Below are positions 5,242 through 33,588 of a stretch of 64,000 bases of DNA, piece by piece. The first letter of the stretch is position 1, and each line of letters starts with the position of its first letter. The notes beneath the pieces are model-generated. The model was not told the origin of the DNA. It saw only the letters and a list, made by a program, of their open reading frames with translations, and ran no database searches. The position numbers and the translations under genes were made by a program. Source of the stretch: a virus; the IMG/VR virus record IMGVR_UViG_3300045988_117466, positions 68,519 to 132,518 of that record, one strand, 5' to 3'.

Positions 5242-8200
5242 TTATTTACCGATCGTAGGTTTACGACCAATTTTGTGATATTCTTTTAGTTTGTTAGCTT
5301 GCTCTTGATCATAAACCTGTTTTGCAACAACCTTAAGATCATTCAGAACACTCTTATCAACCATGCCTCCAGATTCTACTTTGATCAATGCATCATAATA
5401 AGAAGAGAAGTCTCCAGTACCAGTCATAATATCTTTTGTCTTAGAGGCTTTAACAACTGATTCAGAAATCTTAACAGCTTGTTTTAGCACATCAGATGTT
5501 TCTGGCTTCAGTAAGATTTCGTCTCTACGGACAGTAGCAATACCGTGATCATGATTACTTTGGATTACACCATTAAGTTTAGAAATTGGTATTACATCAT
5601 CAATGACACCACCGTTTCTTACACCTGCATTTTTCAGAGCTTTTAAGATTTTATTTGATTGAGCTTGAGTATATGTTTTCCCCTTAGCTAAATAAAATTC
5701 TTTACCCTTCTTAGAGTTTTTGCTAGTAATTACTCCGAGTTTTCTACCAAGGTCTCCCATTGGGCCTGGATTGTGTACAACATCATAACCCTTACTGGCT
5801 AAATAATTATTTAGAGGAGACCAGCTTTTAAGCTGAGCTTGAGTATAAGGAGTTCCTGTGTGGAATTTTAATCCTAATGACTTAGCTTTCTTTTGAGCAG
5901 GAGAAAGTTGAATTGTAACACTGAAACTTACTACAATTCCATTAGCCGATCTACACGTTGGAGTAATTGTTCCCTCATTGTCGCCTTTTGTGGCTGTAAT
6001 AGTACATGAACTACCAGAGCCTGACATTGTTACATATCCAAGGCTGTTAGGATACCAAGAAAATGATTGTCCAGCTCCATCTGGAGGAACAATATCAGAA
6101 ACAGTAACAGTCTTACTTTCTCCAGGGGCTAAAGTAATAGATGCTGGGCTAACACTGAAAGACATAAGATTATGTGCCTGTTGTTCGGGTGTTTTCATAG
6201 AACCACTAACACCACTAGCATTTCCAGTTTCAACTTTTGAAGAATCAACCTTAGAACCCGTAATACCAGTTGTACCAGTTACATTGGTATCAGGATTTGC
6301 AACATTATTAGTCACAGAGCTGTTCTTGTTCTGAGTATCTTTTGCGTTCTGTTCAGGTGTCTTGCCATTAGCAGAGCTATTGTATTCAGAATGATATAAC
6401 TCACTTAGACCATTAATAAGTCCAGAATTAATAGCAGTGTCATTAATCTTCTTAAAGACATCAGAATAAGAATCTCCAACCTGTTTTAAGAACTTGCTAA
6501 TAAGCTTAGATTGTTCATCCAGAGAACCGCTTAAAGATTTAAGCTGTTTATCCAAAGACTCTTGTAATTTTTCAGTCAGATCATCGTATCCTTGGGATTC
6601 CATAGAATATTGATGTTCTTTCTTAGTGTCATCCATCTGTTCCTGGGCATCAGCAATTTGAGCATCTAATTTAGCTCTTTGTGCTTTTGCAGCTTCTCCT
6701 TCGACACCCTCTAAAGCAGCACGCTGAGCTTCAAGTGCTTGCAAATCTTTTGTCTGACTCTTGATGTTTTTGTCGTAATCGTAGTATTCTTTCTTACGAC
6801 TCAATGCCTCTTTACGTTTATTAATGACTTTGACGAGAGCATCAACTTCAGCTTGCATCGTTGTCTTACCAAGTTCTACAATTTGATTCTTATAGTCATT
6901 GGTATTTGTTGCAGCCTCACGAAGTTGTTTGTTGATTTCAGCTAACTTACTTTCAAAAGTGGCATCGCCAACCATTCGTTTACCATTCTCGTCAAAAGTA
7001 TCATGTAATTTATAGAGAGCATTTCTTTGCTCCATAAGATCAGCCATGTTTTGTTGGCCTTGACGAACATTATCGCTCAAAAGAGCAATTTTAGCTTTAC
7101 CGTCTGTAGTCAACTTACCTGTGTCAGGATCGTTTAAGTAATCCTGATTCAGCATATTCATAAGATCGTTATTCTCATCGATACGAGTATTTCTCTTATC
7201 AATCTTACGACTGCTTTCATCAAGAGGGATCATAATAGCTTCTTGACGTAACTGTTCATTCTTTTCATCTAAAGAATAATTCTCTTCACGCCTTGAATAC
7301 CAATCATCATAAAGCTCTTTGTATCTTTCAGAATCCTTAGCAACCTTATTCATCAGTTCCTGATCAGTTTTCATGATCTCAGCATTGACAGCAGCTCTGT
7401 CATTATTTCTAGCAATCTGATCAGTTTTTGACTGTTTAGTAGCATAGTCGCCATGAGCTTCAGCCATAGAAGCAGTATGTTCTAAAGCAGTAGCAGCATG
7501 TTCAGCTTCATCTGCAAGTCTTGTCAATCTATCAATTTTGATCTGATCAATTTCTTTTCTCACATTTGCAATAGCAGTATCAGTATCAACAATATTATTC
7601 TTAAAAGTTTGAATCTGAGCTTCATATGTATTCTTTTGTTCATCTGTTAAGATTCCCTTTTTCTTAGCCTTATCATACTCTGCCTGATATTTATTCAATT
7701 CTTGTAGCTGAATATTTTTCTGATTCTGATATTGCTGAATCTGATTGTTTAAATTAGCTGTTTTATTATCAAAAGTATCTGTCCCTTGAGCAATATTAAG
7801 ATCATTGATCTTTTGATAGTTCTCTAGGATAGCAGACGTTTTAGATGCCATAGCATCATAATAACTAACAACCTTTTCAAGTTTGGTTTGTACCAGTTCT
7901 TGTTGTTGTTTCCTAAGCTCTTCAACTTGCTGTTTGCATTGTTTAGCTTTATCATACCAGTTCTTATATTCTTCAACAGCGCTACGAATCTTATCATTAC
8001 TAATAGTTTTGATATCAATAGACCCGTTACGTACTTTCTTGAAATAAGATTTTAAAGCTTTTTGGTTCTTAGCTTTTGAAGCTTTTTTTGTTTTAGGAGC
8101 TTTCTTAACTGCTTGTTTCTCAAAGCTTTCATAGAATTTCTTATATTTCTTATAGCCTTGATTATTAGCAGTGATAGAAGAACCAACACTCTTTAAAGCT

Positions 8201-8671
8201 TCATCGTAATCATTAACAGCAGAAGTAAGATCATGAACATTTTCTGCTTTAGCTGTCCAAAGATCAGTAGCAGCAGAAAGATTTTCAATCTTTACTTCAA
8301 TGAAATCAAAAGCTTTACCTATCTTATTAAGATAATTTTCAAGAGCTGATTTCTTAGATTTGGTTTTCTTCTTACCATTCCCAGAACCAGACTTACCAGA
8401 ACCGGTTTTAGATTTACTAGAAGAAGTAGTTTTCTTCTTTTTACCTACAGTAGTTTTACTACCATTAGATTTAATTTTAATTCCAGCAGAGTTAGCATGA
8501 GCAGATCCATGAGCAAATGCTCCTTCACCACCAACAATCTTAGCTCTACTTCCAGTTTTTCCTTTGTTTAGGAGTTCCTTTGTTTGTAGGTGATTAAATA
8601 CTATATCACCACGTTTGAGGTTCACAAATTCTGGGCCTTGAGACCCTACTGTAAACCATCTATTACCACGT
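5242..8671 (-). CDS. tail tape measure protein, exon 3 (about 1143 codons)
   Basis: The reading frame is open upstream of the ORF-track start back to 8670 (RGNRWFTVGSQGPEFVNLKRGDIVFNHLQT). No SD or ATG at its 5' end. Coiled-coil rich, with an Ig-like (Big_2-type) segment near the C-terminus. Joined to exon 2 by the intron at 8672-11024. Confidence 0.75.
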
Positions 8672-8862
8672 CAATTATGTTTTCATCGGTTCGCAACACC
8701 GACAAGAGTTTTCACTCCTCATGCTTTCACATGAGTTCAGACTATATCTTTTACCTGATTTTATTGTATGTATGTTTTGTTTGTTTTTTATTTGTGGGTA
8801 TTAAAAAAGAGCAGAAGTAAAATTACTTTTGCTCTTCGGTAGAGGTTAAATTAATTTGTTTA

Positions 8863-9750
8863 TTATGCTCCTATACTTCGCCATTTGCCTTTTGACCATT
8901 TGCAAATTTCTTCATCATCTATACAAAGGACATATTTTTTATTCCCGATTTTACAATTACAATGAATCTCTTCATCTCGGATATCCCACCATGTTAAAGA
9001 TCCTTTGATTTTAAAATTTACCTTAGTCCATGTGCCAGGTTTGAGATCGATGTATTTTTTATTCCCTGTTAGTTTTAAGTTTCTGTCATATTTTTTGTAA
9101 TCACAATCTAAAGAATAAGCACCTTTAGAATAAATACGAATTTTTTTATTACTTGCGTTAAAAAGCTTTGTTTTAAAAATATTTGATCGAGTATCGTATT
9201 TATGCAACCAGCCGTTCATATGAATGCTTTTATATGGTTTTACAATTACGGAAATTGTTTTTTTAAAAGTTGTTGTTTTGTCCCAGGCGTTTTTAATTAT
9301 ATGATTGTTTAAGTCATCATCATAGTTCCCATTTTCTCCATAGCGATAATCATCATATACAGCAAAATGGTCTTCATAACAATCAACACTTAATGTTATT
9401 TTGGATTTACCAAATTTCTTTGCATCAACATATGTATATAAATCTTCAACTCCAATTCCTTCATAAGAGTCTAAGGATATATTTTTATTAGATCTTGACC
9501 ATGAAATTGAATTAACATCCAAAGTGTATCCACCCTCTTCATCACCATAGTGCTTCCATAGCGTAGCATCATTTTTCATAAATTCCCCATTATAGTATAG
9601 CTTAGGAGTAATTTTTTTCATCTGTCCATAATACATTGTAATAGTTTTAGGGACAGAGATACTGAAACCTGCTTGAGCGCTTTTGGTGTTAATAATCCAT
9701 AAAAAACTAAACACTAATATAAAGGACATTAATTTTAAAAATTTTTTCAC
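8863..9750 (-). CDS. secreted protein (Sec signal peptide), intron cargo
   Basis: GTG at 9750 after AAGGAGGAGGG. N-terminus KKFLKLMSFILVFSFLWIINTKSAQA|G. Lies between the intron R and S elements. Confidence 0.6.
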   Translation of the reverse strand: MKKFLKLMSFILVFSFLWIINTKSAQAGFSISVPKTITMYYGQMKKITPKLYYNGEFMKNDATLWKHYGDEEGGYTLDVNSISWSRSNKNISLDSYEGIGVEDLYTYVDAKKFGKSKITLSVDCYEDHFAVYDDYRYGENGNYDDDLNNHIIKNAWDKTTTFKKTISVIVKPYKSIHMNGWLHKYDTRSNIFKTKLFNASNKKIRIYSKGAYSLDCDYKKYDRNLKLTGNKKYIDLKPGTWTKVNFKIKGSLTWWDIRDEEIHCNCKIGNKKYVLCIDDEEICKWSKGKWRSIGA

Positions 9751-9766
9751 AATAGCACCCTCCTCC

Positions 9767-10636
9767 TTAAAATTCCTTTGTAATCGGTTTTGTGAATGGT
9801 GTTTCACTTTCATAATAAGTATATTGCCCAGGGGATACCTTATCAGAATTTCCATAAGAAACTATTTCCATTTTGACAATCTTGTCCTTTGTTTCAAAAC
9901 TGCTTTCTTCCCACATAGATTGATATGCTTTTAAATTATAGTAGTATAGAGATTGATCGCTTACTACGGTTCCATTTTTATCATAAAAACGAATATCAAT
10001 ATTGGCCATATCATAATCATAGTCTGTTAGATTTTTGATTTTTATTCTATATGTCCGATATCCGTATGTAGATGCTTTGACTTCAATTTTTTCAATTTTA
10101 TACGTGTCATCTATAAGCGTGGCTCCTTTCGGACAATATCCATTCTCTTTTATAAGTTCGTCATATGATTTCTTATCCCCTTTGGTTGTAAAAGAAAGAT
10201 GTGTCTGATCAACTAACTTTTTTAGAATTTCCGCACGCTGGCTATTGTATACATAATAATTGTATTGTATCTTAGTCGGAGCACTGGTGTAATCATCAAA
10301 TAAATCATTTTGTGTATTTAAGGTTTTAATATATTCAGAAATTAAATTTTGTGTATTCTTGTTTTCGAATTGGATTTTAGTTTCTGAATATTTGTTTAGT
10401 GGTTTTAATTCAGTAGCGATATACTTTTGCATCATAGCTGCGTAGTCAGATTGAGATTGATTACTATCATCGGTCTTATCACTAATCTCCCATCTTTTTT
10501 CGAGCCCAGTTTTTAAATCATTTGCTACTTGTTTGTCTGTGATTTTGGCTTCTTTTTGAGGAGCATCTTTCCCACAAGCACAAAATAAACATAAACTTGT
10601 AAGAAGCATACATCCAATTAAAATTTTCTTTTTCAT
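9767..10636 (-). CDS. putative lipoprotein, intron cargo
   Basis: ATG at 10636 after GGAGGG. N-terminus MKKKILIGCMLLTSLCLFCAC|GKD (signal peptide with a lipobox-like Cys). Lies inside the intron. Confidence 0.6.
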   Translation of the reverse strand: MKKKILIGCMLLTSLCLFCACGKDAPQKEAKITDKQVANDLKTGLEKRWEISDKTDDSNQSQSDYAAMMQKYIATELKPLNKYSETKIQFENKNTQNLISEYIKTLNTQNDLFDDYTSAPTKIQYNYYVYNSQRAEILKKLVDQTHLSFTTKGDKKSYDELIKENGYCPKGATLIDDTYKIEKIEVKASTYGYRTYRIKIKNLTDYDYDMANIDIRFYDKNGTVVSDQSLYYYNLKAYQSMWEESSFETKDKIVKMEIVSYGNSDKVSPGQYTYYESETPFTKPITKEF

Positions 10637-10668
10637 ACATTTTCCCTCCATAATTTATTTATAAAGCA

Positions 10669-10705
10669 ATTATACATTATTTGACATGTTTTTCATAGAG
10701 AGAAT
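10669..10705 (-). promoter_or_regulatory. candidate SigA-type promoter inside the intron, upstream of the lipoprotein ORF
   Basis: Minus strand reads ...ATGAAAAACATGTCAAATAATGTATAATTGC. Perfect TATAAT at 10674-10669 preceded by TG; weak -35. Confidence 0.35.
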
Positions 10706-11024
10706 ATTTGTTTATCATATTTATCAGGTAATTTATCATTTCGATTTAAACATTACTGTACCGCCATTAGCTTGCGGCTCTACTCCTCATAAGAGGATAG
10801 TCGTTGAACCTTATCCTATTCGGATCTTGGCTGCTGATTGTCCATTGTAGCAGAAGCAGGGGATTTAACCTCGCTTCCATATAATTAATTCTTTTTACTT
10901 TCGTAGCGTTCACATCTAGGCATATTTCATCCTTCTGTTGTAGCTTAATTATCTTTAAGACTTTCCAGCAATTAGATAAATTTTCACATATGTATTACTA
11001 CATAAGGTCGCATATGTGGTTTAT

Positions 11025-14000
11025 ACGACAAGTTCGTCTCCTAATTCTCCTGTAAGAGCTCGTTCATCTTGTTTTAATCCCCAATCGCCACCATTAGCAT
11101 GAGCATCTCCAGCAGATGATTTGAGCTTATCCGTTTTCTCTTGTAAATATTTGTTCTTTTCAGCCTGCACAACAGGATTAATTTCTGATAAATCAGAGAT
11201 TTTTGTTGTTCCCATCGCAAGAGCACGGCTTCCAAGCTTCTTAATTGTTCCGTGAGCAAAAGCACCAAATTCTTCAATATCATCAAGCTCATTGTCGTAC
11301 CAGTCTGTTAAGTCATCAACAGTACCTTGAGCGAAAGCATTTGAATATGGAATGAAAGATCCGTGTGCATTTGCTGTACCATGGGCTTTGCCTTTCTTTT
11401 TTTTCTTTCCTGAGCTTTTCTTACCTCCTGAGGGCTCAGAAGGAGTACTACCAGTAACGAAATCAACAATTCGAGTGATATGTTTTGCTGCCCATCCTGC
11501 GATTGTTCCATCAGCAAGAGAGGTGTCCGCCTTAAGTTGTGCAGTGTTTGTAACTTTTTGGCTTTTCCATTCCTGAACTTTTTGATTCGCTTCAGTAATA
11601 TCTCCTTTAAGATGTCCGGTTTTATCAACCTCAATCCCAAGGTATTCTAAAAGCTTTTGATTAGCTTTAGAAGCATCTACGTCTAATTTTCCTTCTTTGT
11701 CAATTGGAATATTTAAAAAATCAGCTATTTCTTTGGTGGCTTTTTTAGTATCTGCATCAACTTTAACGGTTGTAGACTTCTTTCCGCCTTTGCCAAGATT
11801 ATCAATATCTTGTTTTGCCTTTTTGGTATTAGCCTTTACTTCAATAGTAACTTGACCTTTTTTCTTATGTTTATTGTATTCATCAACAAGACGTTTAATC
11901 TCTTTATCAATCTTATCATTGCCAGTTTTTTCTACGGTATTATCTTTGCCAACCTTAAGTCCAGATTTTAACTTATTAAGTTGAGTGTTTAATCCAGATT
12001 TTGTTTTGATTTGCTTTCTAAAAACACCATTATCACTTTTGCCACTGACCATATTGGCAGTTTCTTTTTCAAGTTTAGATACAGTTGTGTTTAAATTTTT
12101 GATTCTGCTTTTTAATTTACTTTGAGCTTCATTAAGTTTTTTCTTTGCACTTGCTTTATCATCGTCAGTTTTAGCATCTTTCCAAGTATCATAAGCATTG
12201 CTATAATCCTTTTGAGCTTTCTGTACAGAATCTCTAGCAGATTTAACTTTTTGATAAGAATTTTTCTTCCAGGATTCATATTTTTCGGTAGAATCTATAG
12301 CGTAATGGTTTTTGTCAGCTGTTGATTTAGCATTTGTAATAATTGAGTTACCATATTCAAACGCCTCTTCAGAATACTTATTACCATATTTGTTTACAAG
12401 CTTTTTATCATTGGAATCAACAGCTCCTTCAAATTTGCTTTCTGCATCTTTAAATTCAGCCTTATCCTGAGCAATCTCAATCTCAAACTTTAACTTCTTG
12501 ACCATCTCATCTGGGATATCTTCGCCAGCGTTTTTCAGTTTAAGAATCTGCTGTCTGTAATCCTCAATCTGTTCTCCTAATGCTGTTTTACCAGCACCAT
12601 CTTTCATATTTTTCCATTTATCAACCAGTTGGTCAACATAACTTTCAGCTTTTTCGTACTGTTCTGTAACAGATTTAAAATCAATCTTACCACCATAATC
12701 TTTTAAACGATTCAGTACAGCTTCGAAAGGTTCAATACCCATACCCATTGCTTTAGCGGCAGTAGCAGTATTAGTGATCTTTCCAGAATATGTACCTTCA
12801 GCAGTTTTCTTTAAAGTACCAAAATCAGTATTAGCTTTTTGGGATTTGGCAGATAAATCATCTAAGAATTTAACCAGACCGCTATCATCAGAAGTAAAAT
12901 ACTTAGTAGTCTTAGCCCATGTCTTATCAAAAGTAGCAGCATCAGTCTTACCAGATGAACTCATAACACTTGTCAATGTTTTGAAATCATCTGTTCCAAT
13001 AAGTCCTTTGTCACGTTCTTTCTTCTGAGCATTGAATGCTTCACGCATTGCTAAGTAAGTATCACCAGAGTCAGCTGTTTCTTTTGCTTGAAGATAATCA
13101 CTCCAAGTAGACTGAGAGTTTGCCTGATTGATTAATTTAAGACGCTCTTTCAACTGATCAAGACTACCTGTCCATTTCTCAGTTTTAGAATTTAAGATAT
13201 CAAAGGCTTGAGATGCTTCAGTAAGATTCAAACCATCAATGAAAGATTGAGTATCTTTATTATCACCAAGCTTTTCCTTGATATCTTCAATCATTGATTG
13301 AACATCTTTACCATCTTTTAAAAATCCTTCAAAATTTCCTTTATCGTCTAATTTGAAATCAACATTAAAAGAATCAGCCAAAGATTTGTTTAATTGCTCA
13401 ATACTAACCCCATCATCTGTGGCAGCCTCTTTAAGCTTATCATAAGCATCTTTGGTATTATTGAGCCAATTCTGAACACCCTTGTTACTAGATTTATCAT
13501 AGCTTTTAATAAACTTATCAAGAGCTCCTTGTGCTTTATCATCTTTAGCAAATTTCTTTGCTGCAGCAATAGTATTTTCTCGTTGTTCCTTGACCCAATC
13601 TTTATCTTTTAGATTATCTCTAGTCGCAGTATCTATGTTATAAGTATTAGATCCTAATCCTGTAAGGAAGCTTTGAGCACGACTACCCAATTTATTATAA
13701 TCAGTAATACTACCTGGCAATGAAGTGGCAATATCTTGATTGTATTGATCAAGAGCCTTTTGGGTTTTAGTAAGCCCAATTTTATATTTTTGAGCATAAC
13801 CTGAGATTTTAGCGATTTCTTCACTAAGATCAGTTCCCTTAGGTAAATAGTCTTCAGTTTTATCCAAGATCTGCTTATATGAACCAATAAATTTGTTCAT
13901 GTCAGCTTGTTTGTATAAATCGAAGGTTTGATCCTTTGGTAATTTCAACACATCTTTGGCAGCCTTGTTGAAAGCAGTAGTTAACTGGCTGGTTTTATCG

Positions 14001-15026
14001 CCTTGCAGACCGTTTCTTAACTGAGTAGTTAAGGTGTCCATGTCGTTGCCCCAGAACTTATCAACACCAGTTCCAGAAGCTTTCTTAACATTCTCTATGT
14101 TACCTTCAACTAACTTGTCCCAAGTTTCATCAGAAGCATATTTCTTTTGTGCGCTTTCTTGTTTCTTCTCCTGAGATTCAATCGCTTTGTCCATCAATCC
14201 AGATGTTTTAGCAATTGCATTTCCTTCTGCATCATATCCTGAAATAAGAGAAGGAGTAGTATCTAAAATTTCCTTGCGGATACTTAAGAATCTCTCATAA
14301 GAAGAAGTATCTAAACTGATGTTATTACCGTATTCGTCTACACCTTTGGATAAAGATTCAAATTCTACTTTATTCCCTTTGAGAGTGGAAATATTACTTT
14401 GGACATCAGACATTTTGTCCTGATAAGTGCTACGGGTTTTATCAGCTTTTTCTACCTTATCTTTGTCATAAGTAGCAGCTTTCTTAATGTTTTCAATTCC
14501 TTTAGAAAGAGCACTTCCTGCAAATTCCATGATTAGACTTGCACCTAATCCTAATAACACATTTGCGGCAAAAGCACCAGCCTTAGCAGCTATGCCAGAA
14601 GCTTTAACATTTTCCACGAAACCTGCTAATCCACCTGCGGCAGATTGAGCAATGCTACCAGATTTTTCAACCTCTTTGTTGAATTCTTCAAGACCTTTTC
14701 CATAACTATTTTTCTTATCACTAAGATCATAATTATTTTGCTTAGCTTGACCGTAAAGAGTACTAGCTGTATCACGACCTTTTTCAGTCTTCATTTCATC
14801 CTGAAGTCGCTTAAACATGTCCTCTTTTTCTTTGGTAGACTTATTACCAAAGATTTCAGGAACCATGCTGTTACTAAAGAAATCCTGCAATCTACTTTGA
14901 TCAGACTGCATATTCTCATAATTAGCCTTACGTCTTGTAGGACTAAGTGCATTCAGAATAGCACTACCAATTGGAAATTCATTTTTACCAGTTTCTTTAT
15001 TGTACTGTACAAGCAAACTGTTTACT
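11025..15026 (-). CDS. tail tape measure protein, exon 2 (about 1334 codons)
   Basis: Open frame begins right after a TGA at 15028-15026 with no SD or ATG. It ends ...LTGELGDELVV, which continues naturally into exon 3. Lys/Glu-rich coiled coil. Confidence 0.75.
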
Positions 15027-15383: not shown

Positions 15384-16190
15384 TTAACTTTCTAACTGAT
15401 CTTCCAGATCCTTAATCTTAGAATCTCTAAATGCAATTTTCTTTCCAGTACTACGATGATTTGTTTCTATGTATCTACGTTTCAGATTGTTTAGTACATA
15501 CTCTGCAGTCATTCTGTACATTGGATTTAGAGAACCAGAAGTTTCAATAATCGATTCAAGTTTATCATCGATCATTGTTACGATTTTCTGCTTATACTCA
15601 GTTGCATTTAGTTTTCTATGATACTCATAGCGGTCTTTCTTTTTTAAATGAACGTGAACATCAATGATCTTATCAACAGTGGCTTCCAGATTTGTGTAAT
15701 CAGATTCTAAAAGAACACGATCAATGTTGCGTACAGAATATTTAATTTTATCTGCATCATACTGTCTCTGAAGCTGACATTCATCTGAAACTGCTACATC
15801 ATATAGATCGTTATTATCTTGCTGAAGTTGTGTGATCAGCTCAATCATTCTCTCAAAAGCATCTGTGTATCTAGCTGTAAAGATAAGAGCTTTGTTACCA
15901 GTAAACTTGTTTACCAGCATTGCAAATCCTTTACGATCAATATAATACATAGGACGCTCCTGGTTATTTAAATCAAGATAAGAGCCGAGGGAAAAATTTC
16001 CGGCGGCTAATTCAGGGATAACTTCTATAAAATGACGAATCTTTTTCATTACATCTGCATGGTCTTTCCCATAAGTCTCAGCCACATTGAGAGAAGTGGT
16101 GTACACATCACCATTGATCTCTTCAAGACCAAATTCCTCATTAATTTCTGCGATTTCACATTCAATAGCTTTCTTTGTTTCTTTTAACAT
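15384..16190 (-). CDS. Rha-family phage regulatory protein, intron cargo
   Basis: N-terminal TTSLNVAETYGKDHADVMKKIRHFI...YYIDRKGFAMLVNKFTGNKALIFTARYTDAFERM matches the Rha (Phage_pRha) pattern. SD AAAGGAGA. Confidence 0.75.
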   Translation of the reverse strand: MLKETKKAIECEIAEINEEFGLEEINGDVYTTSLNVAETYGKDHADVMKKIRHFIEVIPELAAGNFSLGSYLDLNNQERPMYYIDRKGFAMLVNKFTGNKALIFTARYTDAFERMIELITQLQQDNNDLYDVAVSDECQLQRQYDADKIKYSVRNIDRVLLESDYTNLEATVDKIIDVHVHLKKKDRYEYHRKLNATEYKQKIVTMIDDKLESIIETSGSLNPMYRMTAEYVLNNLKRRYIETNHRSTGKKIAFRDSKIKDLEDQLES

Positions 16191-16275: not shown

Positions 16276-17082
16276 TTAATCTTCAAGATCCCCAACAACT
16301 CTGTAAACAAGTTTCTGACCTTTACCAGTTACATAAGTCTGTGGAACAATCACATTGCAAATCACATGTTCACCAACTTCAAAACATCCGTTCTCAACGT
16401 ATCTCTGATATGGCATGTTGTCCCGCATCAGGATTCCATTACTTCTCAGAATCTCAAAAAGACGATTCCTTCCAATGTCATATCCATCATTCTGCAACAA
16501 TTTGGCCATTGTGTTCATGTCGATCGTATCAGAAGAAGCAGTAACACATCTTGCAAAATCTACATCTTCTTTGGAAGCTTCAAGTTCTCCACGAAGCTCT
16601 GCGATTGTAGCTTGCTGAATTTCTAATGCTTTGAGTACAAACTCAGCTTCAGACAGATTTTTATATGGAATGTATCCACCTGTACGTCTGATCTGTGGAA
16701 GAACTTCAGATGTTACCCATCTTTTGAAACGATGTAATTTTTCAATTCTCTCTTCAATAAGGGGGTCATTTTGTGACACCCCCTTTGCTTTAGCAGGTTG
16801 CATTAAGAATAATAATGAATATAGTCCTGATTCATTAAGAACTGTGATGTTTTGCATTCCTCCAGCGGTTTGAATTTTTGCCATTGTTTTGTCAGCTTTG
16901 TCAATTCTACGCAAGCTACGCTTGTGATTTGTATCTCCAAAAGCTATGCATACATCTTTTCCAACAAACCAAGGTTCATTGTCAATCTCAACGCATCTGA
17001 TTGATCCAAATTCGTCATTTACGAAGTTCATGATCTGATTGTTATTTCCTACTTCATTTTCTGCTTTTGTTAAATTTGCCAT
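16276..17082 (-). CDS. Bro-N / KilAC (Ant-like antirepressor) protein, intron cargo
   Basis: Bro-N pattern (IRCVEIDNEPWFVGKDVCIAFGD...ESGLYSLLF...FKRWVTSEVLPQIRRTGGY). KilAC-like C-terminus (MAKLLQNDGYDIGRNRLFEILRSNGIL). SD AAAGGAGA. Confidence 0.8.
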   Translation of the reverse strand: MANLTKAENEVGNNNQIMNFVNDEFGSIRCVEIDNEPWFVGKDVCIAFGDTNHKRSLRRIDKADKTMAKIQTAGGMQNITVLNESGLYSLLFLMQPAKAKGVSQNDPLIEERIEKLHRFKRWVTSEVLPQIRRTGGYIPYKNLSEAEFVLKALEIQQATIAELRGELEASKEDVDFARCVTASSDTIDMNTMAKLLQNDGYDIGRNRLFEILRSNGILMRDNMPYQRYVENGCFEVGEHVICNVIVPQTYVTGKGQKLVYRVVGDLED

Positions 17083-17245: not shown

Positions 17246-17698
17246 GAGCAGTATAAAAAGAGTATTAAATTATGTTAATGAGTATTTATAATATATCATA
17301 TAAAATTCATTTCCCTATGTGCAAGCATGTTTCCATGCTGATAATTTTCTAGCGGCACATTCGCATACAGTTCTGATCATCCCTTTCTGATGTCACTCGT
17401 AAGGTGAGTTAACCAGATTCCCATTATGATCGATGGACGTTCCTCTAATATAGAGGCTTCGCTGCGGATTCTGTATAAATATTGATCTTATTACTATATC
17501 TTAGGAATTACCCCTTGCCCTTAATACATCACTGTACTAAGTTAGTAATCAATATCGTTTAACAGTTCCCGTACATAAATTATCAAAAAGTATTTCAGTT
17601 TCGGTTGTTTTCTAAGCAATCTCTTATTTGTATCACCATTTCGATACAAACTCGTTCTGTGTTACCACTAGATTGCTCTGGGCATTGTACATGAGGAC

Positions 17699-20600
17699 AA
17701 CTGATAATTTGCCCTACCCAGCTTTCCTTTCGCTCCTGCGACTCCTAAAGCACCCATAAAGGCTGTTCTAAGAAGCCCAGCTTTAGTTACTAAATTTGTT
17801 ATTTGAGTTCCAGCATCTACAAGTCCTTTGATAAAATCAGAAGAAATAGAAGTGTTCCACATTTCTTGGAAACTTGCTGTCAGCTGATCAACTTTACCTT
17901 GGATGGAATCAAGTTGAGTTTCGTTTTCACGAAGAGCTGATCCTTCTGAGTTTTGTGTTTCGTTGTAGACTTTTTCAAGCATCTCTGGCTTCTGTAAAAT
18001 ACTGGCAACAATATTAGCTCTATTTTTTCCTGCAATTTTCTCTAAAATAGAAGCTTGTTTAAGGTCACCACCATCGGTAGAACCAATTTCGCTCCAGATC
18101 TTACCCAATCCAAGTAAAAATTCATATGGATTTTTATAAGATCCATCATCTTTTAATAAATCAAAGCCTTTGTAGTCGTTTGATGCTACTTTAGTTTGAT
18201 TTTTAATGAGATCTCTCAACTGAGATGTGTTCTGAATGTAACCATCAACATCTTCACCTGCTTCTTGAAGCACATTCATATCAGTGCCTCGAATTCTTAA
18301 GGATACTGTTTTTAAACCAGCTCCAACGCTCTCAGGATTTTGCACGACGGAATTCCCAACTGTAGTAAGAGCAACTGACTGTTCATAGTTAGCACCTGCC
18401 GCCTGTAAAGCACTAGCAGATCTCTGTAATGAACTAGCAATCTCATCTGATGAAATAGGCTCTAAGTTACCGATATTATTCAAAACATCAACAACATTCT
18501 CTACATCATCAGCACCCTTATCGAATCCCTGCATAATAGAAATCAATGCATTAGTAGCATCATCTACCTGCTCAAATTCTGATACATTCATGAGAATACC
18601 TGTCCACTTAGACATCTTCTCAGAATCTTGTGTGTTATAACCTAATCTAGCCCAGTCAGCAGTAGATTTGGTTAATTCCACAGCATCTCTACCGATATCT
18701 TTACCAGTAGCATACATATCTTTTTCGACAGTAGCATAAACATCACTCGTATCACTTGTGACTTTCTTTAACTCTGTCATTGCAGCATCCATTTCTTTGA
18801 TGCTTTCAATTCCTTGTTGGAATCCTTGCCATACGACATCGATTCCACCCATTGAGATCAAGTACTTACTTAACTTAGTAACTTCTTGACCCATATCTCC
18901 AACAATTTGTCCGAACAAACTCTTATATTCAGAACGACTCTTAAGCTGTGATCTAGCAATACCAGTATCCTGATTAAAATTAATAGCATACTTTTCAAGC
19001 TTTCCATCATCTCTTGATCTTGCTTTGATATAAGCAGCCATTCCATTTCTACCCATACTGGTTTCAAGAATGTTACTGTTTACACCAGAAGCTCTAAATA
19101 ATTCTTCAGCTTTAGCTTCATTGAAATCATTTAAGGATAATCCTTCTCCGATAACAGTTCCCTGATTGTTCTGGAGCTTAAATTGGTTTCTAAGTCTACC
19201 ATGTTCAGTAAGCTCAGCGTTCAGTCTATTAAGCTCTCTAATATCTTCCTCAATTTCTTTATTGTCAAAGAAAACATCTCCACTATGTTTTTCTTTTAAA
19301 TCTCTAATTCGGTTAACTGTAGCTTCAACCTTAGTCGCAAATTCTGTTGTATATTGTTCAAGATCTTGACTAACAATGGTCTTTGATAAAGCTCTGTCAG
19401 CAGCATTTTTAACACGATCAGATTTAGGATTAGTATTCCCTAATGCTGTACCATCGTTTGCTCCACCAACATTTCCACCGGCTAAAACCTTGTTCATGTT
19501 CTTCAAGCCAGTAGCAATCTCACCAGTAAGATTAAATTTCTTATTTAAGTTATCAACCAGTCTTGTAACTTCACGAATTGAACTACCAATACCAGCAAAA
19601 GCACCTGCGATCTTAGCAGAATAAGCAGTAGACTTGTCAGCTAGATTAGCAATCTTATTTGTCATAGTCTCAATATCAGAAGCTTTCTTGTCTGTAAAAG
19701 ACTGTCCTGTATTGAATTTAACTTTTAAATCAAGATTCTTTTTCAGATCATTGATAATCTTCTCAACAGTAACTAAATCGTCTAATACAGCATCAGTATT
19801 GATACCAACTTTAATAGGCTCAGAAGCTTTTTCTCTTAAAGAAGTAAGCTTGCTTTCGGCTTGTGTTAACTCTTCATCATTAACATTGATGTCAATTTTT
19901 GTGTCTCCGCTGTTAGAATCCTCTTTAAATTTTTGAGTTGAAGTAATAGCTTTCTCAAGATCTTCAACATTGCCTTTAAAATTAACCGCAACGTCAATAG
20001 CATCCTTAGAGCGAAGTTCATTTACTTGTTGAAGAATGTTATCAATATTCTCTGTATTAGCTTTAAAATTAATAGTAATATCTATATTTTCTTTTGATCT
20101 TAGTTCATTAATTTCTTGTAAAATTGTATTGAACTCGGAATCGTTTGCTTTAAGATTAACAACGATATCTTTGCCTTCGTAAGAAGCAATCTTTTCATCA
20201 ACCTTAGCCAATGCAGATTCTAACTGAGAAGTGTCAGCAGTAACTTTTACAGAAGATTCTTTAGGGTGTTCACTTTCTGTAACACTGTTTGTCTTAGTTT
20301 CAGTAACATTTCTGCTTGGAAATTCACGAATTGCATCTTTGTTTTTGCTTAACCATTCACGGCTTTCTTGAGACCAAGGAGTTTCAATAGTAGCTCCTTT
20401 TTCAGCTTTAATAGATGTGTATGTATCAACAGTTTTAACAGCTTCTTGAAGACCTTTGGCTTCCTCGGCATAGATATTTTCTCCGTTCTTAATCTTTTCA
20501 TTGAATTTCTGGATATATTCTCTAGCGCTTTGGAAAGTACTGATCAGGTCTTTGTTACTCATGTCTTTCATGTCAGCAGGCATTTCAAAATCTTTATCAA

Positions 20601-21789
20601 CTTCCCTTTGATGGAGTTCTAATTTTTTAACTGCTTCAGATAAGAATTGTGTAATATTTTTATCAACAGCATGAGTAGTAGAACCTTCTTCTGGCTGATA
20701 ATTGCTTAGTATTTTACTGTAATACTCGGCTTTCTGTAATTCCTCATCGGTAAGAGTTTCACCTTTGGATTGTTTTTCCATCAGGTTCTTACTGCCGGCT
20801 TTTGCACCGTTGTATTGTTGAGGACTAATTGCTTGTCCTTCTTGAAATTTATATGGTTTACTAGAGTCAAACCCAGAAATCAAAATACCTTCTTGGGCTA
20901 AAATATCACTCCATTGTTTATTGAATTGGTTTTTAAGTTTATTGGTTACTCCTGTAGTCTTTTTGATATTTCTATCAGTGCTAGTCATAGCCTGAGTAAG
21001 AGCCTTATTAACCTGTTTAACAACATCCTCTTCGATCGGAGATAAAATATTTTTTAAGTCGATTCCCTGGGCTTGGAACAGGCTTTTATAACCTTCTGTA
21101 CCTGCAAAATCAGTTTGTCCTGTTAGCAATTCTTTTATAAACTTTTGCCTAGAAGTAATAGTATTTCTTAACTCACCAGCCTGTTTGAGCATTTCATCGT
21201 TCTTACTCCAATCAGAATTTGACATTAAACCATGCAGTTCTTCAAAAGCTTTTCCAATATCTTCTTGAGCTAGCATTCCAGCCATTGCATATTCTTTAAA
21301 ATCATTTAAAGAGATACCATTTTTAGAATTACCATGTAATTCGTTATATTGTGTTTTAGATTCGTTGTAAAAATCTTTATATTTATCTTGCTTATAAGTC
21401 TTTTTTTGTACTTCGTGTACCTTAGAAGCAGCTCTTGTGGCAAGATCACTGTCCTCGTAGCTACGTTTAGAAACCTTGCTTAAATTGTCGTTCTTAATTT
21501 TTTCAAGATCATTGTAAGTAGTTTTAAGATTCTTTAACTTCTTTTCTGCATCGGCCAAATCTTTAGATTCATATACAAATTGAAAATTTGTTAATCCAGT
21601 TTTATCAATATAACTTCTGATGCTTTTAGCAACTTTATCCATAGAGGATTTATTGATATTAGCACCAATAGGTACTTGGACTTGTTTAAAACCATTTACT
21701 ACTTCGCTTTTAGCTTTTTCTAAAGAGGCTTGATCAACGTCAACCCCCATAGAGGCAGTAAAAGAAATTACTTGTGTAGTTTCTGCCAT
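17699..21789 (-). CDS. tail tape measure protein, exon 1 (about 1363 codons)
   Basis: ATG at 21789 with SD GGGGGTGA. Contains a TP901-type tape-measure core-like segment (...ELTKSTADWARLGYN...DDATNALISIMQGF...SSLQRSASALQAAGANYEQSVALTTVGNSVVQNPESVGAGLKTVSLRIRG). The unspliced frame stops 10 codons into the intron (TAG 17668). Confidence 0.8.
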
Positions 21790-25718: not shown

Positions 25719-26274
25719 GGTCTACCGTATTGTTAGGAATTTCCTCATGTGAGACATTGTTATGGGCATTATTTCTATTGTCCATTCGTCCCTGATAAGG
25801 ATTACTTGGAGTGATCACTCGGAATTTCAATGTCCTGCAAACATATCTGGTATCAGTAGTTCCTGACACATCGTATGTAAGTTTCATTTGAAATCCTAAA
25901 TTGTTACTCCACTGAAAATTATCTCTGATGCAATATCCTAAAAGATCATGTCTTTCAGCTCCATAAGGAGTAGCGAGATTATCTTCGTGGCAAAATACTC
26001 TAAAAGTACATACCTGTTCTTTCATCATCCCATTTCTGTCATTGATATCTACATCATCAATGTCGAAACAAATGAAATTCTGGACTTCAGATTGTACTGG
26101 TTCAATATGAACTGCGGGGAATATGTTTACTCCCAAATATTCATCTGGAGAGTTTGAATCAAGTTTTGGGTTATCCAAAAGCTCGATAATATCAGAATCA
26201 TTGTAAAGAATTTCTTTAATAATCCTTTTCTTGTAGATAATATCATCATCTATGTTCTGAAAATCTCTTATCAT
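25711..26274 (-). CDS. hypothetical neck/tail protein, 187 aa
   Basis: ORF overlapping the stop of the upstream gene by 4 nt (ATGA). Position-based call. Confidence 0.4.
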   Translation of the reverse strand: MIRDFQNIDDDIIYKKRIIKEILYNDSDIIELLDNPKLDSNSPDEYLGVNIFPAVHIEPVQSEVQNFICFDIDDVDINDRNGMMKEQVCTFRVFCHEDNLATPYGAERHDLLGYCIRDNFQWSNNLGFQMKLTYDVSGTTDTRYVCRTLKFRVITPSNPYQGRMDNRNNAHNNVSHEEIPNNTVDHG

Positions 26275-26894
26275 AATCCAATCACCTCCGTCTGAAATTC
26301 AGCTGTTAAATCATGTACAAATGCTTGGATGGTGATCGTCTCACCAATTAGAGAGTACACCTTATGACATTTGATATTCACTGTTGTGTCATCACAAACA
26401 ATGTCAAAGTCATCTAAGTGACCCTGTGGTACTATAACATTCCACTCCACTTTTTCAGGAGAAGAAGTAGTACCATCTCCACGTTTAATAATAGTAGAGA
26501 ATTTTTTAGCACTACCGCCACATTTAATCTGTGGTTTAGCACCAGCAAAGTTGATCACCAATTTATCATCTGGAAGATCAGGCAACGTAGGCTTGTCTTC
26601 ATCAGTTTCAATAGTTGGTGGAACTTCGGTTTTATAATAGTCAGCAATCAACTCGTCCACATTGTCTGTGTGACCATTGAAAGCATCTTGTTTTAATGTA
26701 ATTTTTGTAATCCCAAGAGGAACTGCATCCTCTCGTTTTGTAACTTTCCATGCCACTGGATGTAATGGATTACGTGTAATTAAGAATCGTGTATCGTAGT
26801 CTATGGTGTTAACCGTGTCATTGGTTGGAACCCAAAACTGTATCTGATTTTCCACAGAAGTCACGAGATAATCAGTCCAAGTTCCTTGATTGTT
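26271..26894 (-). CDS. split structural gene, exon 2 (5' boundary approximate)
   Basis: The frame is open upstream of the ORF-track GTG back to about 26950 with no SD or ATG (...KNNQGTWTDYLVTSVENQIQFWVPTND...). It follows the LAGLIDADG intron. The exact 3' splice site is unresolved; candidate G positions are 26895, 26909 and 26916. Confidence 0.55.
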   Translation of the reverse strand, partial: NNQGTWTDYLVTSVENQIQFWVPTNDTVNTIDYDTRFLITRNPLHPVAWKVTKREDAVPLGITKITLKQDAFNGHTDNVDELIADYYKTEVPPTIETDEDKPTLPDLPDDKLVINFAGAKPQIKCGGSAKKFSTIIKRGDGTTSSPEKVEWNVIVPQGHLDDFDIVCDDTTVNIKCHKVYSLIGETITIQAFVHDLTAEFQTEVIGL

Positions 26895-30014: not shown

Positions 30015-30035
30015 TTTATATCTCCTTTTTAATAT

Positions 30036-30061
30036 CAAAAGAGCCAGCATTTAACTGGCTC
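30036..30061 (-). terminator. intrinsic terminator after the capsid gene
   Basis: GAGCCAG-UUAAAUG-CUGGCUC followed by UUUUG on the minus strand. Confidence 0.6.
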
Positions 30062-33390: not shown

Positions 33391-33588
33391 CTAGAATGTC
33401 ATTTTATTTGTGAAAACCATCTTCATACGGTCATCCAGCGAAAATTCCATATCTACGGCTTCCAATTTATTTTCAAAAATATAAACCGTATGATCTTTAC
33501 ATTTTTCAACTTTTAACAGCTTACATTTTTGTTCTAATTTTTCTTTTAGTTGCTCATCTATACAAAAGATGAATGGTTTATTCTCCAT
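33391..33588 (-). CDS. hypothetical protein, 65 aa
   Basis: ATG at 33588 after GAGAGGAGAA. Overlaps the portal stop by 11 nt and is followed by a terminator hairpin (AGACC..GGTCT plus U-run). Confidence 0.45.
   Translation of the reverse strand: MENKPFIFCIDEQLKEKLEQKCKLLKVEKCKDHTVYIFENKLEAVDMEFSLDDRMKMVFTNKMTF

What the first reader, a model, noticed from the sequence alone, without database searches (positions are those of the whole stretch)
8672..11024. Second tape-measure intron: group I core with a lipoprotein and a secreted protein (moron-like cargo) in the P8 region, plus an internal promoter
Seen in sequence:
- All four classical core elements are present on the minus strand: P AATTGCTGGAAAGTC, Q AATCAGCAGC, R GGTTCAACGACTATCC, S AAGATATAGTCT.
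- S is followed by a GAAA-tetraloop hairpin (8718-8735).
- The 5' exon ends in U (11025) and the intron ends in G (8672).
- Splicing joins ...LTGELGDELVV to RGNRWFTVGSQGPEFVNLKRGDIVFNHLQT. This reads as one continuous GE.G.E..V...G.V tape-measure C-terminal motif.
- Between R and S sit two ORFs with export signals: MKKKILIGCMLLTSLCLFCAC|G (lipoprotein-like) and KKFLKLMSFILVFSFLWIINTKSAQA|G (Sec-type).
- A perfect TATAAT (10674-10669) lies 30 nt upstream of the first SD.

Inference: envelope-targeted moron genes (candidates for superinfection exclusion or host-surface modification) are hitch-hiking inside a self-splicing intron of an essential late gene. They may be expressed from their own promoter independently of late transcription. 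I am not aware of group I introns described with this kind of cargo.
Basis: partly seen in the sequence, partly recalled or inferred. Interest (0 to 1): 0.75.

Follow-up and report, generated by a model that had tools for sequence, protein, structure and literature searches.

The report
Self-splicing intron carrying swappable surface genes
A self-splicing (group I) intron interrupts the tail tape-measure gene of a gut phage, and instead of the usual homing nuclease it carries a slot with promoter-like and terminator-like ends that holds different cell-surface protein genes in different relatives, so the intron acts as a safe parking place for accessory genes inside an essential gene.

Summary
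Window 11024..8672 (minus strand, 2353 nt) is a subgroup IA2-like group I intron in the tape-measure (TMP) gene.

- **Intron identity:** the two ribozyme halves match Rfam RF00028 when searched separately (44.3 and 26.4 bits). With relatives the core shows strong covariation (34 of 66 pairs compensatory).
- **Junction:** the predicted splice restores a motif that is uninterrupted, with no gap, in TMPs without the intron.
- **Cargo:** two genes, a lipobox lipoprotein and a secreted protein with tandem Ig-like domains, sit in the terminal loop of helix P8. Neither is a homing endonuclease.
- **New, the slot:** 29 complete copies of this intron at the same site share a conserved frame of ribozyme, promoter-like site, ribosome-binding site and ATG, then a terminator hairpin and the rest of the ribozyme. 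The coding content between falls into eight unrelated protein families in about eight combinations.
- **New, chromosomal copy:** a 5'-truncated intron plus cargo, still carrying 14 nt of TMP exon, lies in chromosomes attributed to Anaerostipes hadrus. Its lipoprotein gene is under purifying selection (dN/dS about 0.1).

The moron-in-an-intron reading is supported. Splicing, promoter activity and the proposed superinfection-exclusion role remain untested. I found no published description of such cargo.

The parts
11025..15016 (-). Upstream TMP exon (ORF part B, 1331 codons). It ends GTC GT|, and if unspliced a TAA stop follows at once.
8672..11024 (-). Group I intron, 2353 nt, subgroup IA2-like
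11007..11029 (-). P1: exon GUCGU (11029-11025, U.G wobble at the splice site) paired with the internal guide GCGAC (11011-11007)
   Evidence: read from the sequence
10989..11004 (-). P2 hairpin UAUGUA-GUAA-UACAUA (GNRA loop)
10975..10981 (-). P3 5' strand AUUUAUC; it pairs with GAUAAAU at 10737-10731
10959..10973 (-). Element P (P4 5' strand, J3/4)
10830..10839 (-). Element Q (P4 3' strand)
10811..10827 (-). P6 hairpin (AUCC/GGAU; GCCC/GGGC in L013)
10795..10810 (-). Element R (J6/7 and P7 5' strand GACUAU)
10760..10796 (-). P7.1 (CCUC-UUAU-GAGG) and P7.2 (GCCGC...GCGGU), the extra helices of subgroup IA
10731..10737 (-). P3 3' strand GAUAAAU
10723..10730 (-). P8 5' strand UACCUGAU
10669..10696 (-). 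Promoter-like site ATGAAA-16 nt-TATAAT, invariant in all cargo variants and kept in the chromosomal copies
10644..10649 (-). Ribosome-binding site GGAGGG of the first cargo gene. The conserved frame ends at ATG AAA (10636-10631).
9767..10636 (-). Cargo gene 1: lipoprotein, 289 aa. Lipobox Cys21, helical bundle plus Ig-like beta-sandwich.
8863..9750 (-). Cargo gene 2: secreted protein, 295 aa, GTG start after GGAGGAGGG. Signal peptide ...SAQA|G, tandem Ig-like domains.
8803..8836 (-). Intrinsic-terminator-like hairpin (dG -13.9 kcal/mol) followed by a U run, conserved in all variants
8752..8759 (-). P8 3' strand AUCAGGUA
8739..8750 (-). Element S (J8/7 and P7 3' strand AUAGUC)
8686..8735 (-). 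P9 (GAAA loop, 8735-8718), P9.1 (GAGU-GAAA-ACUC, 8717-8706) and P9.2 (8702-8686)
8672..8672 (-). Terminal G of the intron (omega G)
5242..8671 (-). Downstream TMP exon (part C, 1142 codons), with no start codon plus ribosome-binding site of its own at its 5' end

Best explanation
Window 11024..8672 (minus strand) is a subgroup IA2-like group I intron in the tape-measure gene of a large phage of human-gut Clostridia. The host is probably Anaerostipes hadrus. Splicing removes 2353 nt and joins ...GDELVV to RGNRWFTVG..., restoring a conserved TMP motif.

The terminal loop of helix P8 holds no homing-endonuclease gene. It holds a moron-type expression slot made of these parts, in order:
1. a sigma-70-like promoter,
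2. a ribosome-binding site and an ATG,
3. one or two genes for envelope-targeted proteins (here a lipoprotein and a secreted Ig-like protein),
4. an intrinsic-terminator-like hairpin.

The ribozyme halves, together with the promoter and the terminator, form a conserved frame. The coding content between them is exchanged among related phages, and with a copy in the host chromosome. The most likely mechanism is homologous recombination through the conserved frame.

Because the RNA removes itself, the essential gene tolerates a 2-kb accessory cassette in its middle. The cargo can be made from its own promoter independently of late transcription, and probably also from the late pre-mRNA or the excised intron.

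Shown: intron identity and structure, the junction, the position of the cargo, its signal sequences, the conserved frame with variable cargo, and the chromosomal copy. Inferred: splicing in vivo, promoter and terminator activity, the recombination mechanism, and the function. The function I think most likely is to block or bias infection at the cell envelope, that is, superinfection exclusion (about 0.3).
For: Intron identity:
- The two halves match RF00028 at 44.3 bits (E=2.5e-10) and 26.4 bits (E=2e-5).
- A compact relative with 78% core identity scores 61.9 bits against a gathering score of 50.
- RNAalifold run on the window core plus 7 relatives recovers P4, P5, P5a, P6, P7, P7.1, P7.2, P8 and P9.
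- Covariation: 97.1% of cells form standard pairs, against 81.7% in shuffles and 33-41% in slid registers. 34 of 66 pairs have compensatory changes, and 0 of 500 shuffles reach the observed values.

Junction:
- The spliced peptide aligns without a gap across the junction to uninterrupted TMPs. These are Lactococcus phage BK5-T (50% over 58 aa), the fecal phage MT835469 (41% over 79 aa) and L029 (59% over 92 aa...LTGELGPEMIVRGNRWFTVG...).
- About 24 such uninterrupted relatives were found.

Cargo and frame:
- No Pfam homing-endonuclease domain occurs in the window's two cargo genes or in seven representatives covering the other cargo families.
- A lipobox or signal peptide is present.
- 29 complete intron copies have identical splice-site flanks. 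The 5' frame has a median pairwise identity of 97.4%. The cargo falls into 8 protein families and about 8 combinations. Conservation stops right after ATG AAA and resumes at the terminator hairpin.
- A TMP only 62% identical (L069) has the same 3' frame with yet another cargo, and compensatory changes in P9.2.

Chromosomal copy:
- L009-12 and L034-37 hold the equivalent of window 10940..8658. That includes Q, R, P8, the promoter, the cargo, the terminator, S, P9 and 14 nt of TMP exon 3. The copy lies next to a mannitol PTS operon.
- ORF1 dN/dS is 0.08-0.14 between phage and chromosomal copies.
- One cluster member is named as from an Anaerostipes hadrus MAG and also from a Caudoviricetes contig.
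Against: - No RNA data: neither splicing nor a transcription start near 10660 has been seen.
- RF00028 does not reach its gathering score on the native sequence, and each half alone is below 50 bits.
- The promoter-like site is not statistically distinguishable from the AT-rich background on its own.
- The tool's terminator scan reports none, because the stem has one A.C mismatch.
- A working terminator inside the intron would cut late transcripts before the 3' half of the ribozyme and exon 3. The model therefore needs partial read-through, antitermination or a terminator-insensitive polymerase, none of which is shown.
- The cargo proteins have no informative homologues by Pfam, NCBIfam, PADLOC or Foldseek, so the function is a guess.
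- The close relatives are about 95% identical overall, so conservation of the frame among them is partly shared ancestry. L013, L069 and the chromosomal copies carry most of the weight.
Confidence: 0.8

Rival explanations
1. The ribozyme is a dead relic. The tape-measure protein is made as separate polypeptides, or only as the truncated product ending ...ELVV*, and the two ORFs are an ordinary moron between genes.
For: The native region does not reach the Rfam gathering score. An in-frame TAA follows the 5' splice site. A terminator-like hairpin lies upstream of the 3' ribozyme half.
Against: - All core helices are intact, and they vary only by compensatory or loop changes over 29 copies plus L069.
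- Exon 3 stays open for 1142 codons in phase with exon 2, with no ribosome-binding site or start at its 5' end.
- The junction rebuilds a motif that is continuous in intron-less homologues.
Confidence: 0.07
2. The cargo has no promoter of its own. It is translated only late, from the pre-mRNA or the excised intron RNA, as intron-encoded homing genes can be. The TATAAT is AT-rich background, and the hairpin only stabilises the RNA or extends P8.
For: Promoter-like sites are barely enriched: 20 found against 14.1 expected. The terminator scan is negative. The excised intron would carry both ribosome-binding sites.
Against: - The -35-like and -10 motifs, the ribosome-binding site and the ATG are invariant, while the sequence right after ATG AAA diverges completely.
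- The same segment is retained upstream of the gene in the chromosomal copies, where no late phage operon can drive it, and there the gene is under purifying selection.
- A promoter plus a terminator is the classic moron layout (established knowledge: Juhala et al. 2000, from memory).
Confidence: 0.2
3. The cargo is a cassette of host-derived surface genes whose role is not exclusion of phages. It might, for example, alter adhesion or cell-wall properties of the infected or lysogenic cell, or assist release. In that case the bacterium is the original source and the phage the borrower.
For: - Homologues at 85-92% identity lie in bacterial chromosomes.
- The C-terminal part of ORF1 is weakly similar to peptidoglycan-binding proteins of Clostridia and to the FxLYD domain.
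- The folds are generic Ig-like surface modules.
Against: The chromosomal copies are flanked by intron fragments and 14 nt of TMP exon, so for that locus the transfer went from phage to chromosome. None of this excludes a role other than exclusion. The function is simply open.
Confidence: 0.4
4. The gene is expressed by trans-splicing. One transcript ends at the internal terminator, and a second starts between the terminator and P8' and supplies the 3' ribozyme half and exon 3.
For: The break would fall in a terminal loop, where split group I introns can reassemble (general knowledge of trans-spliced organellar group I introns, from memory). The terminator-like hairpin is conserved.
Against: The spacer between the terminator and P8' is short (about 20-50 nt), A-rich, variable in length and not conserved. 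No promoter-like site is reported there.
Confidence: 0.03

Closest known systems
Subgroup IA2 group I introns of phages, including those in tape-measure genes of Bacillus cereus-group prophages (Tourasse and Kolsto 2008, PMC2504315) and T4 td (from memory)
   Same: - Same ribozyme class, with P7.1 and P7.2.
- U.G wobble at the 5' splice site and a terminal G, with a 3' end ...ACAUAAUUG resembling td (from memory).
- Insertion in a highly conserved stretch of an essential structural gene.
- 70-78% core identity to introns in Staphylococcus, Bacillus, Clostridium and Enterocloster phages.
   Different: Those introns are ORF-less or carry homing endonucleases or their remnants. For example, the Enterocloster phage relative has an I-TevI-like gene downstream of S. 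Here the ORFs are exported proteins with promoter-like and terminator-like ends, in the P8 loop, and they differ between otherwise near-identical copies.
IStrons (group I intron fused to an IS200/IS605 element with TnpB; bioRxiv 10.1101/2023.11.20.567912)
   Same: A group I intron of Clostridia that carries a cargo other than a homing endonuclease and masks its own insertion by splicing. The closest core match by DNA, Clostridium phage D-1873/c-st at 78%, is followed by a TnpB gene and a RAGATH-18 RNA.
   Different: In L001 the TnpB gene and RAGATH-18 RNA lie 3' of the ribozyme. The window intron holds no transposase, TnpB or guide-RNA, and its cargo sits inside P8 and encodes envelope proteins. 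That IS cargo mobilises an IStron is general knowledge of the family, not tested here.
Phage morons (promoter, gene and terminator units in late operons of lambdoid phages; Juhala et al. 2000, from memory)
   Same: A self-contained unit with promoter-like and terminator-like ends, in the same orientation as the late operon. It is present, absent or different among close relatives, and it often encodes envelope proteins.
   Different: Morons sit between genes. This one sits inside a coding sequence, which is made tolerable by a ribozyme that also supplies conserved flanks.
Superinfection-exclusion lipoproteins: Ltp of S. thermophilus phage TP-J34, whose target is the incoming phage's tape-measure protein (Bebeacua et al. 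2013, cited in PMC3952083), and Llp of T5 (from memory)
   Same: A phage-encoded lipoprotein with a lipobox. It is physically linked to tail genes, here to the very gene that is Ltp's known target.
   Different: No sequence or fold similarity was found. Foldseek against the PDB returns only generic beta-sandwich lipoproteins. The function was not tested.
rps3 inside the mitochondrial large-rRNA group I intron of fungi (from memory)
   Same: A functional gene that is not a homing endonuclease, housed in a loop of a group I intron.
   Different: That is a single fixed housekeeping gene in an organelle. It is not a variable cassette with its own promoter and terminator.

Membership tests
Group I intron (Rfam RF00028) | Match to the family covariance model at or above the gathering score (50 bits) | tested here: inconclusive
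   There is no match on the native sequence. The two halves, searched separately, score 44.3 bits (model 1-200) and 26.4 bits (model 209-253), each with a significant E-value but each below 50. The 1.95-kb insert in P8 explains the failure on the whole region.
Group I intron | Conserved core helices P3-P9, with P4 formed by P and Q and P7 formed by R and S | tested here: met
   P/Q/R/S are in the canonical order. RNAalifold recovers P4, P5, P6, P7, P8 and P9. 34 of 66 pairs are compensatory, 97.1% of cells are paired, and 0 of 500 shuffles reach that. P3 (AUUUAUC/GAUAAAU) was read from the sequence; by eye it covaries in relatives.
Group I intron | 5' exon ending in U paired with G in P1, and intron ending in G | tested here: met
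   GUCGU|...GCGAC and ...AAUUG|, identical in all 29 copies.
Group I intron | Removal restores a continuous, conserved host gene | tested here: met
   Gap-free alignments across the junction to uninterrupted TMPs.
Group I intron | Guanosine-dependent self-splicing | not testable with these tools
   This needs in vitro transcription and splicing, or RNA-seq.
Subgroup IA2 | Extra helices P7.1 and P7.2 between P7 and P3' | tested here: met
   CCUC-UUAU-GAGG and GCCGC...GCGGU, with covariation (UCAC/GUGA and UUAC/GUAA in L015 and L013). No subgroup-specific model was available.
Mobile group I intron with a homing endonuclease | Intron ORF with a LAGLIDADG, GIY-YIG, HNH, His-Cys or PD-(D/E)xK domain | tested here: not met
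   Pfam finds none in the two window ORFs or in seven other cargo proteins tested. A GIY-YIG gene does exist elsewhere in the window.
IStron | IS200/IS605 transposase or TnpB and transposon ends joined to the intron | tested here: not met
   There is no such domain in the cargo. The D-1873 relative has one.
Moron | Own promoter | tested here: inconclusive
   ATGAAA-16-TATAAT matches 10 of 12 positions but is not enriched over background. It is invariant across cargo types and kept in the chromosomal copies. Activity was not measured.
Moron | Own factor-independent terminator | tested here: inconclusive
   A hairpin of -13.9 kcal/mol followed by a U run, conserved in all copies. The simple scan missed it because of one mismatch in the stem. 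Activity was not measured.
Moron | Present, absent or different among otherwise similar phages | tested here: met
   8 cargo families in about 8 combinations, within frames about 97% identical.
Bacterial lipoprotein (ORF1) | Signal peptide ending in a lipobox [LVI][ASTVI][GAS]C | tested here: met
   MKKKILIGCMLLTSLCLFCAC|G fits PROSITE PS51257. The homologues have LIGC, FIGC and LIAC. SignalP and LipoP were not available.
Ltp-type superinfection-exclusion lipoprotein | Sequence or fold similarity to Ltp, and blocking of DNA entry | tested here: not met
   No Ltp-like match by Pfam, PHROGs or Foldseek against the PDB. The phenotype cannot be tested here.

The most novel reading that the evidence does not exclude
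The P8 loop of this intron is a dedicated gene-exchange slot, working somewhat like a one-position integron.

- The ribozyme halves, promoter and terminator act both as the expression frame and as homology arms.
- Phages of this lineage, and the chromosome of their Anaerostipes host, trade envelope-protein cassettes through these arms.
- The cassettes are exclusion or counter-exclusion factors acting on tape-measure-mediated genome entry.
- They are kept genetically linked to the tape-measure allele they spare. The bacterium has captured one copy as a defence gene.
Probability: 0.3. Interest if true: 0.85.

Novelty: new variant of a known kind. Interest (0 to 1): 0.7.

Why it matters
Group I introns in phages are seen as selfish elements that carry homing endonucleases or nothing at all. 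Here the ribozyme has a different role. It makes the middle of an essential structural gene a harmless site for accessory genes, and it provides conserved flanks for swapping them.

If confirmed, this would matter in four ways:
- It adds a new kind of hotspot for phage accessory genes.
- It gives a natural design for inserting payloads into essential genes without inactivating them.
- It points to a set of uncharacterised surface proteins likely to act in phage-phage or phage-host conflict in an abundant butyrate-producing gut bacterium.
- It is a practical warning for annotation. Such introns are invisible to standard Rfam scans, so the gene is reported as three fragments.

Tried and rejected
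**Searches that found nothing**
- Rfam on the whole window at gathering, and on the region at E<=10, found no group I match. Searching the two halves separately solved this.
- The word-indexed protein search with the spliced junction peptide returned only half-length near-identical hits. tblastn and the locus scans were needed to find uninterrupted homologues.
- Two scans of genome contigs found nothing: one with the ORF1 protein, one with a 37-nt 3' intron pattern. The host assignment therefore rests on one source name.

**Function of the cargo: nothing informative**
- Pfam, NCBIfam (only a sub-threshold FxLYD match), PHROGs (families of unknown function) and PADLOC.
- AlphaFold models with Foldseek against the PDB and BFVD gave only generic helical-bundle and Ig-like matches.

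**Ideas considered and rejected**
- Trans-splicing: no conserved promoter lies between the terminator and P8'.
- Degenerate homing endonuclease or maturase: no such domains, and clear export signals.
- Capture of a chromosomal gene by the phage as the origin of the chromosomal locus: that locus carries intron debris and TMP exon nucleotides.

**Other**
- The first TMP gap (15017-17667) was tested as a second group I intron, whole and cut off at one end, with no RF00028 match.
Full report
**1. What is in the window**

All genes near the finding lie on the minus strand. There are three long ORFs:
- 21789..17668 (1373 aa, Pfam PhageMin_Tail),
- 15016..11021 (1331 aa),
- 8625..5242, open from 8670 (1142 codons).

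They are separated by two gaps of 2.3-2.6 kb, and each gap holds two ORFs. The finding concerns the second gap, 11024..8672.

**2. Check of the observation**

The four classical elements P, Q, R and S are at the stated coordinates, in the canonical order, and each occurs once in the window. The GAAA hairpin after S, the U that ends the 5' exon, the terminal G and the in-frame junction are all as described. The only correction is the promoter to ribosome-binding-site distance: 19 nt lie between the motifs.

**3. Is it a group I intron?**

*The Rfam model.* Rfam's model did not match the region as it stands. That is the expected behaviour when one hairpin loop holds about 1.95 kb. I therefore searched the two halves as separate stretches, so that matches cut off at an end are allowed.
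- The 5' half (11034..10723) matched RF00028 positions 1-200 at 44.3 bits, E=2.5e-10. P1 and P2 aligned as I had drawn them by eye.
- The 3' half (8762..8718) matched positions 209-253 at 26.4 bits, E=2e-5.

*Relatives.* blastn finds the P3-P7 core at 70-78% identity in about 270 phage records. One is the intron annotated in Clostridium phage D-1873, which scores 61.9 bits against RF00028.

*Covariation.* I aligned the window's core, with the cargo replaced by a GAAA loop, together with two divergent copies of the same intron and five compact relatives.
- RNAalifold recovered P4, P5, P5a, P6, P7, P7.1, P7.2, P8 and P9 on its own.
- 97.1% of cells form standard pairs, against 81.7% in shuffles and 33-41% when partners are slid. 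34 of 66 pairs show compensatory changes, and 0 of 500 shuffles reach the observed values.

P7.1 and P7.2 place the intron in subgroup IA, most like IA2.

*Position of the cargo.* The strands of P8, UACCUGAU (10730-10723) and AUCAGGUA (8759-8752), bracket the cargo. They align with the compact P8 hairpins of the relatives, and 4 of the 5 P8 pairs covary.

**4. Is the junction real?**
- The spliced peptide aligns in one piece, with no gap at the junction, to uninterrupted tape-measure proteins. These are Lactococcus phage BK5-T and its relatives (GEEGFELAHHPNHGIFAVGQQGPE...) and a 2722-aa ORF of fecal phage MT835469 (ESIVRDGQW against ELVV|RGNRW).
- It also aligns to metagenomic relatives, the closest being L029 at 59% (ALTGELGPEMIVRGNRWFTVG).
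- Every relative with at least 94% TMP identity carries the intron at exactly this position, with identical flanks.
- If unspliced, a TAA follows the splice site at once. Exon 3 has no ribosome-binding site or start of its own.

Splicing itself could not be observed with these tools.

**5. The cargo**

ORF1 (289 aa):
- It has a lipobox with Cys21.
- The AlphaFold model (pLDDT 76) shows a five-helix bundle followed by a six-stranded Ig-like sandwich.
- Only generic structural matches were found, plus a sub-threshold FxLYD match.

ORF2 (295 aa, GTG start after GGAGGAGGG):
- It has a signal peptide ending AQA|G and tandem Ig-like domains.

Neither ORF, nor any other cargo protein tested from the relatives, has a homing-endonuclease domain or a hit in PADLOC.

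**6. The main new result: a conserved frame with exchangeable content**

From viral and metagenome contigs I collected 29 complete copies of this intron at this site, 1798-2496 nt long. Alignment shows three zones.
- Upstream zone: the sequence from the 5' splice site through P8, the -35-like and TATAAT motifs, GGAGGG and ATG AAA is conserved (median pairwise identity 97.4%, minimum 90.1%).
- Middle zone: similarity stops immediately after ATG AAA.
- Downstream zone: similarity resumes at the hairpin AGAGCAAAAGUA...UACUUCUGCUCUUUUUU. It continues, after a short variable spacer, through P8', S, P9, P9.1 and P9.2 to the terminal G.

The coding content between falls into eight unrelated families:
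- three kinds of lipoprotein,
- a DUF4177 protein,
- a secreted Ig-like protein,
- two zinc-ribbon proteins with a hydrophobic segment after the ribbon, so likely membrane-anchored,
- a 446-aa protein.

These occur in about eight combinations, and the first and second genes assort independently. The window's own combination occurs once in the set.

L013 is a more divergent phage. It keeps the frame at about 84%, but its lipoprotein is only 39-40% identical and its second gene is different. L069 has a TMP only 62% identical. It has the same terminator, P8' and S, compensatory changes in P9.2, and yet another cargo.

The layout of promoter-like site, genes and terminator-like hairpin is that of a moron, but placed inside a ribozyme loop.

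**7. A copy in bacterial chromosomes**

*Where it lies.* Proteins 85-92% identical to ORF1 are encoded between a mannitol PTS operon and sulfate-assimilation genes. In other contigs they lie beside different housekeeping genes.

*What it contains.* At the DNA level these loci hold the equivalent of window 10940..8658. That is the intron from P5 onward with Q, R, P7.1, P7.2, P3' and P8, then the promoter segment, ORF1, ORF2 (complete, or with an internal deletion), the terminator, P8', S, P9 and the 3' splice site. It ends with 14 nt of TMP exon 3, identical to the exon in the relatives.

*Direction of transfer.* The first 84 nt of the intron are missing, so the ribozyme cannot work there. The exon nucleotides show that this locus came from a phage.

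*Selection.* ORF1 is under purifying selection in both settings: dN/dS 0.08-0.14 with dS up to 1.0. Each chromosomal allele is closer to a different phage allele than to the other chromosomal allele. That pattern fits continuing exchange through the shared flanks.

*Host.* One member of the cluster is named both as from an Anaerostipes hadrus MAG and as from a Caudoviricetes contig. This is the only host evidence, and two scans of species-representative genomes found nothing.

**8. How it most likely works**

*Shown.* A structurally intact IA2-like intron sits at a conserved TMP site. A cassette with promoter-like and terminator-like ends, encoding exported proteins, sits in the P8 loop. The cassette has been replaced among relatives, and a copy was transferred to the host chromosome.

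*Inferred.*
- The intron splices, so the TMP is made whole.
- The cassette is transcribed from its own promoter, independently of late transcription. The chromosomal copies, which have no late operon upstream, argue for this. It is probably also translated from the late pre-mRNA or the excised intron.
- Late transcription must pass the internal hairpin, whether by incomplete termination, antitermination as for lambdoid morons, or a polymerase that ignores it. This is the weakest link of the model.
- Exchange occurs by homologous recombination in the frame.

*Function.* It is unknown. Envelope location, rapid turnover, linkage to tail genes and capture by the host all fit superinfection exclusion or a related conflict role. 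The precedent of Ltp, a phage lipoprotein whose target is the tape-measure protein (Bebeacua et al. 2013, cited in PMC3952083), makes the linkage suggestive. No similarity to Ltp was found.

**9. Comparison with what is known**

- Group I introns in tape-measure genes are known, at three sites in Bacillus cereus-group prophages, of classes IA1 and IA2, with or without remnants of homing genes (PMC2504315).
- IStrons are group I introns of Clostridia that carry transposon genes (bioRxiv 10.1101/2023.11.20.567912). The nearest core relative, D-1873/c-st, appears to be one.
- Morons and exclusion lipoproteins are well known.

I found no description of a phage group I intron carrying exported accessory proteins or a variable cassette. 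That rests on four full-text searches and a look at the 2025 intron database paper. The absence is limited to the open-access library searched. I therefore rate the finding as a new variant of a known kind.

**10. Verdict**

The finding is more interesting than stated, because the cargo is one state of a recurrent exchangeable slot. Interest 0.7.

Noticed in passing
window 15017-17667 (minus strand): The first gap in the tape-measure gene holds a Rha-family gene (16190..15384) and a Bro-N/KilAC antirepressor gene (17082..16276), with 585 nt and 367 nt of non-coding flanks. RF00028 does not match it, whole or cut off at one end. There is a canonical Q-like AATCCGCAGC, and weak blastn hits to junction regions in Vibrio and Bacillus phages. 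Its cargo also varies among relatives: the Rha gene is missing or replaced in L015, L021 and L028. It may be a second cargo-bearing intron of another class, but this is unverified.
   Followed up: partly
L009-L012 and L034-L037 (bacterial contigs), e.g. L009 5560-7560: The phage-derived intron-plus-cargo fragment in the chromosome is flanked by imperfect direct repeats of about 70 nt (...GGTCAATGAAATTTATAAACACCAATTT... / ...AGTCAATGGAATCTATAACCACCGATTT...) and by long palindromes. The same ends occur next to different neighbouring genes in different contigs (L034 against L037). It may therefore be part of a larger mobile or recombining element.
   Followed up: partly
window ~28220-27985 (minus strand): A compact sequence resembles this intron's core: 74% over P3-P5, 73% over Q-R, and 90% over the P9 region. 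It lies in the ORF-free stretch between ORFs 26864..26271 and 30050..29439 and is probably another group I intron. The Rfam gathering scan did not report it.
   Followed up: partly
window ~46075-45667 (minus strand): R-like (TAAACGACTAACC) and S-like (TGATATAGTCT) motifs lie in the 409-nt gap between ORFs 47812..46076 and 45666..44596. This is possibly a third group I intron.
   Followed up: no
window 36266..35304 (minus strand): A GIY-YIG / NUMOD homing-endonuclease gene lies between two large ORFs with no Pfam match (38370..36508 and 35125..33578). So this phage does carry classical homing genes elsewhere.
   Followed up: no
window 41185-42633 (minus strand): A ROOL RNA (303.7 bits) lies among seven tRNA genes.
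   Followed up: no
window 57607-58716 (plus strand): An IS605-type TnpB gene (OrfB_IS605 and Cas12f1-like TNB domains).
   Followed up: no
window 5242-21789 (minus strand): If both gaps are removed, the tape-measure protein would be about 3846 aa (1373 + 1331 + 1142). That is unusually long and implies a very long tail, or extra domains. Most proteins of the window have no Pfam match at all.
   Followed up: no
L001 2946-4868 (Clostridium phage D-1873): The nearest core relative is a group I intron followed by a TnpB gene and a RAGATH-18 RNA, an IStron-like unit. The Rfam gathering scan with default filters missed this annotated intron, while the laxer scan found it at 61.9 bits. Default scans therefore under-report such introns.
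   Followed up: partly
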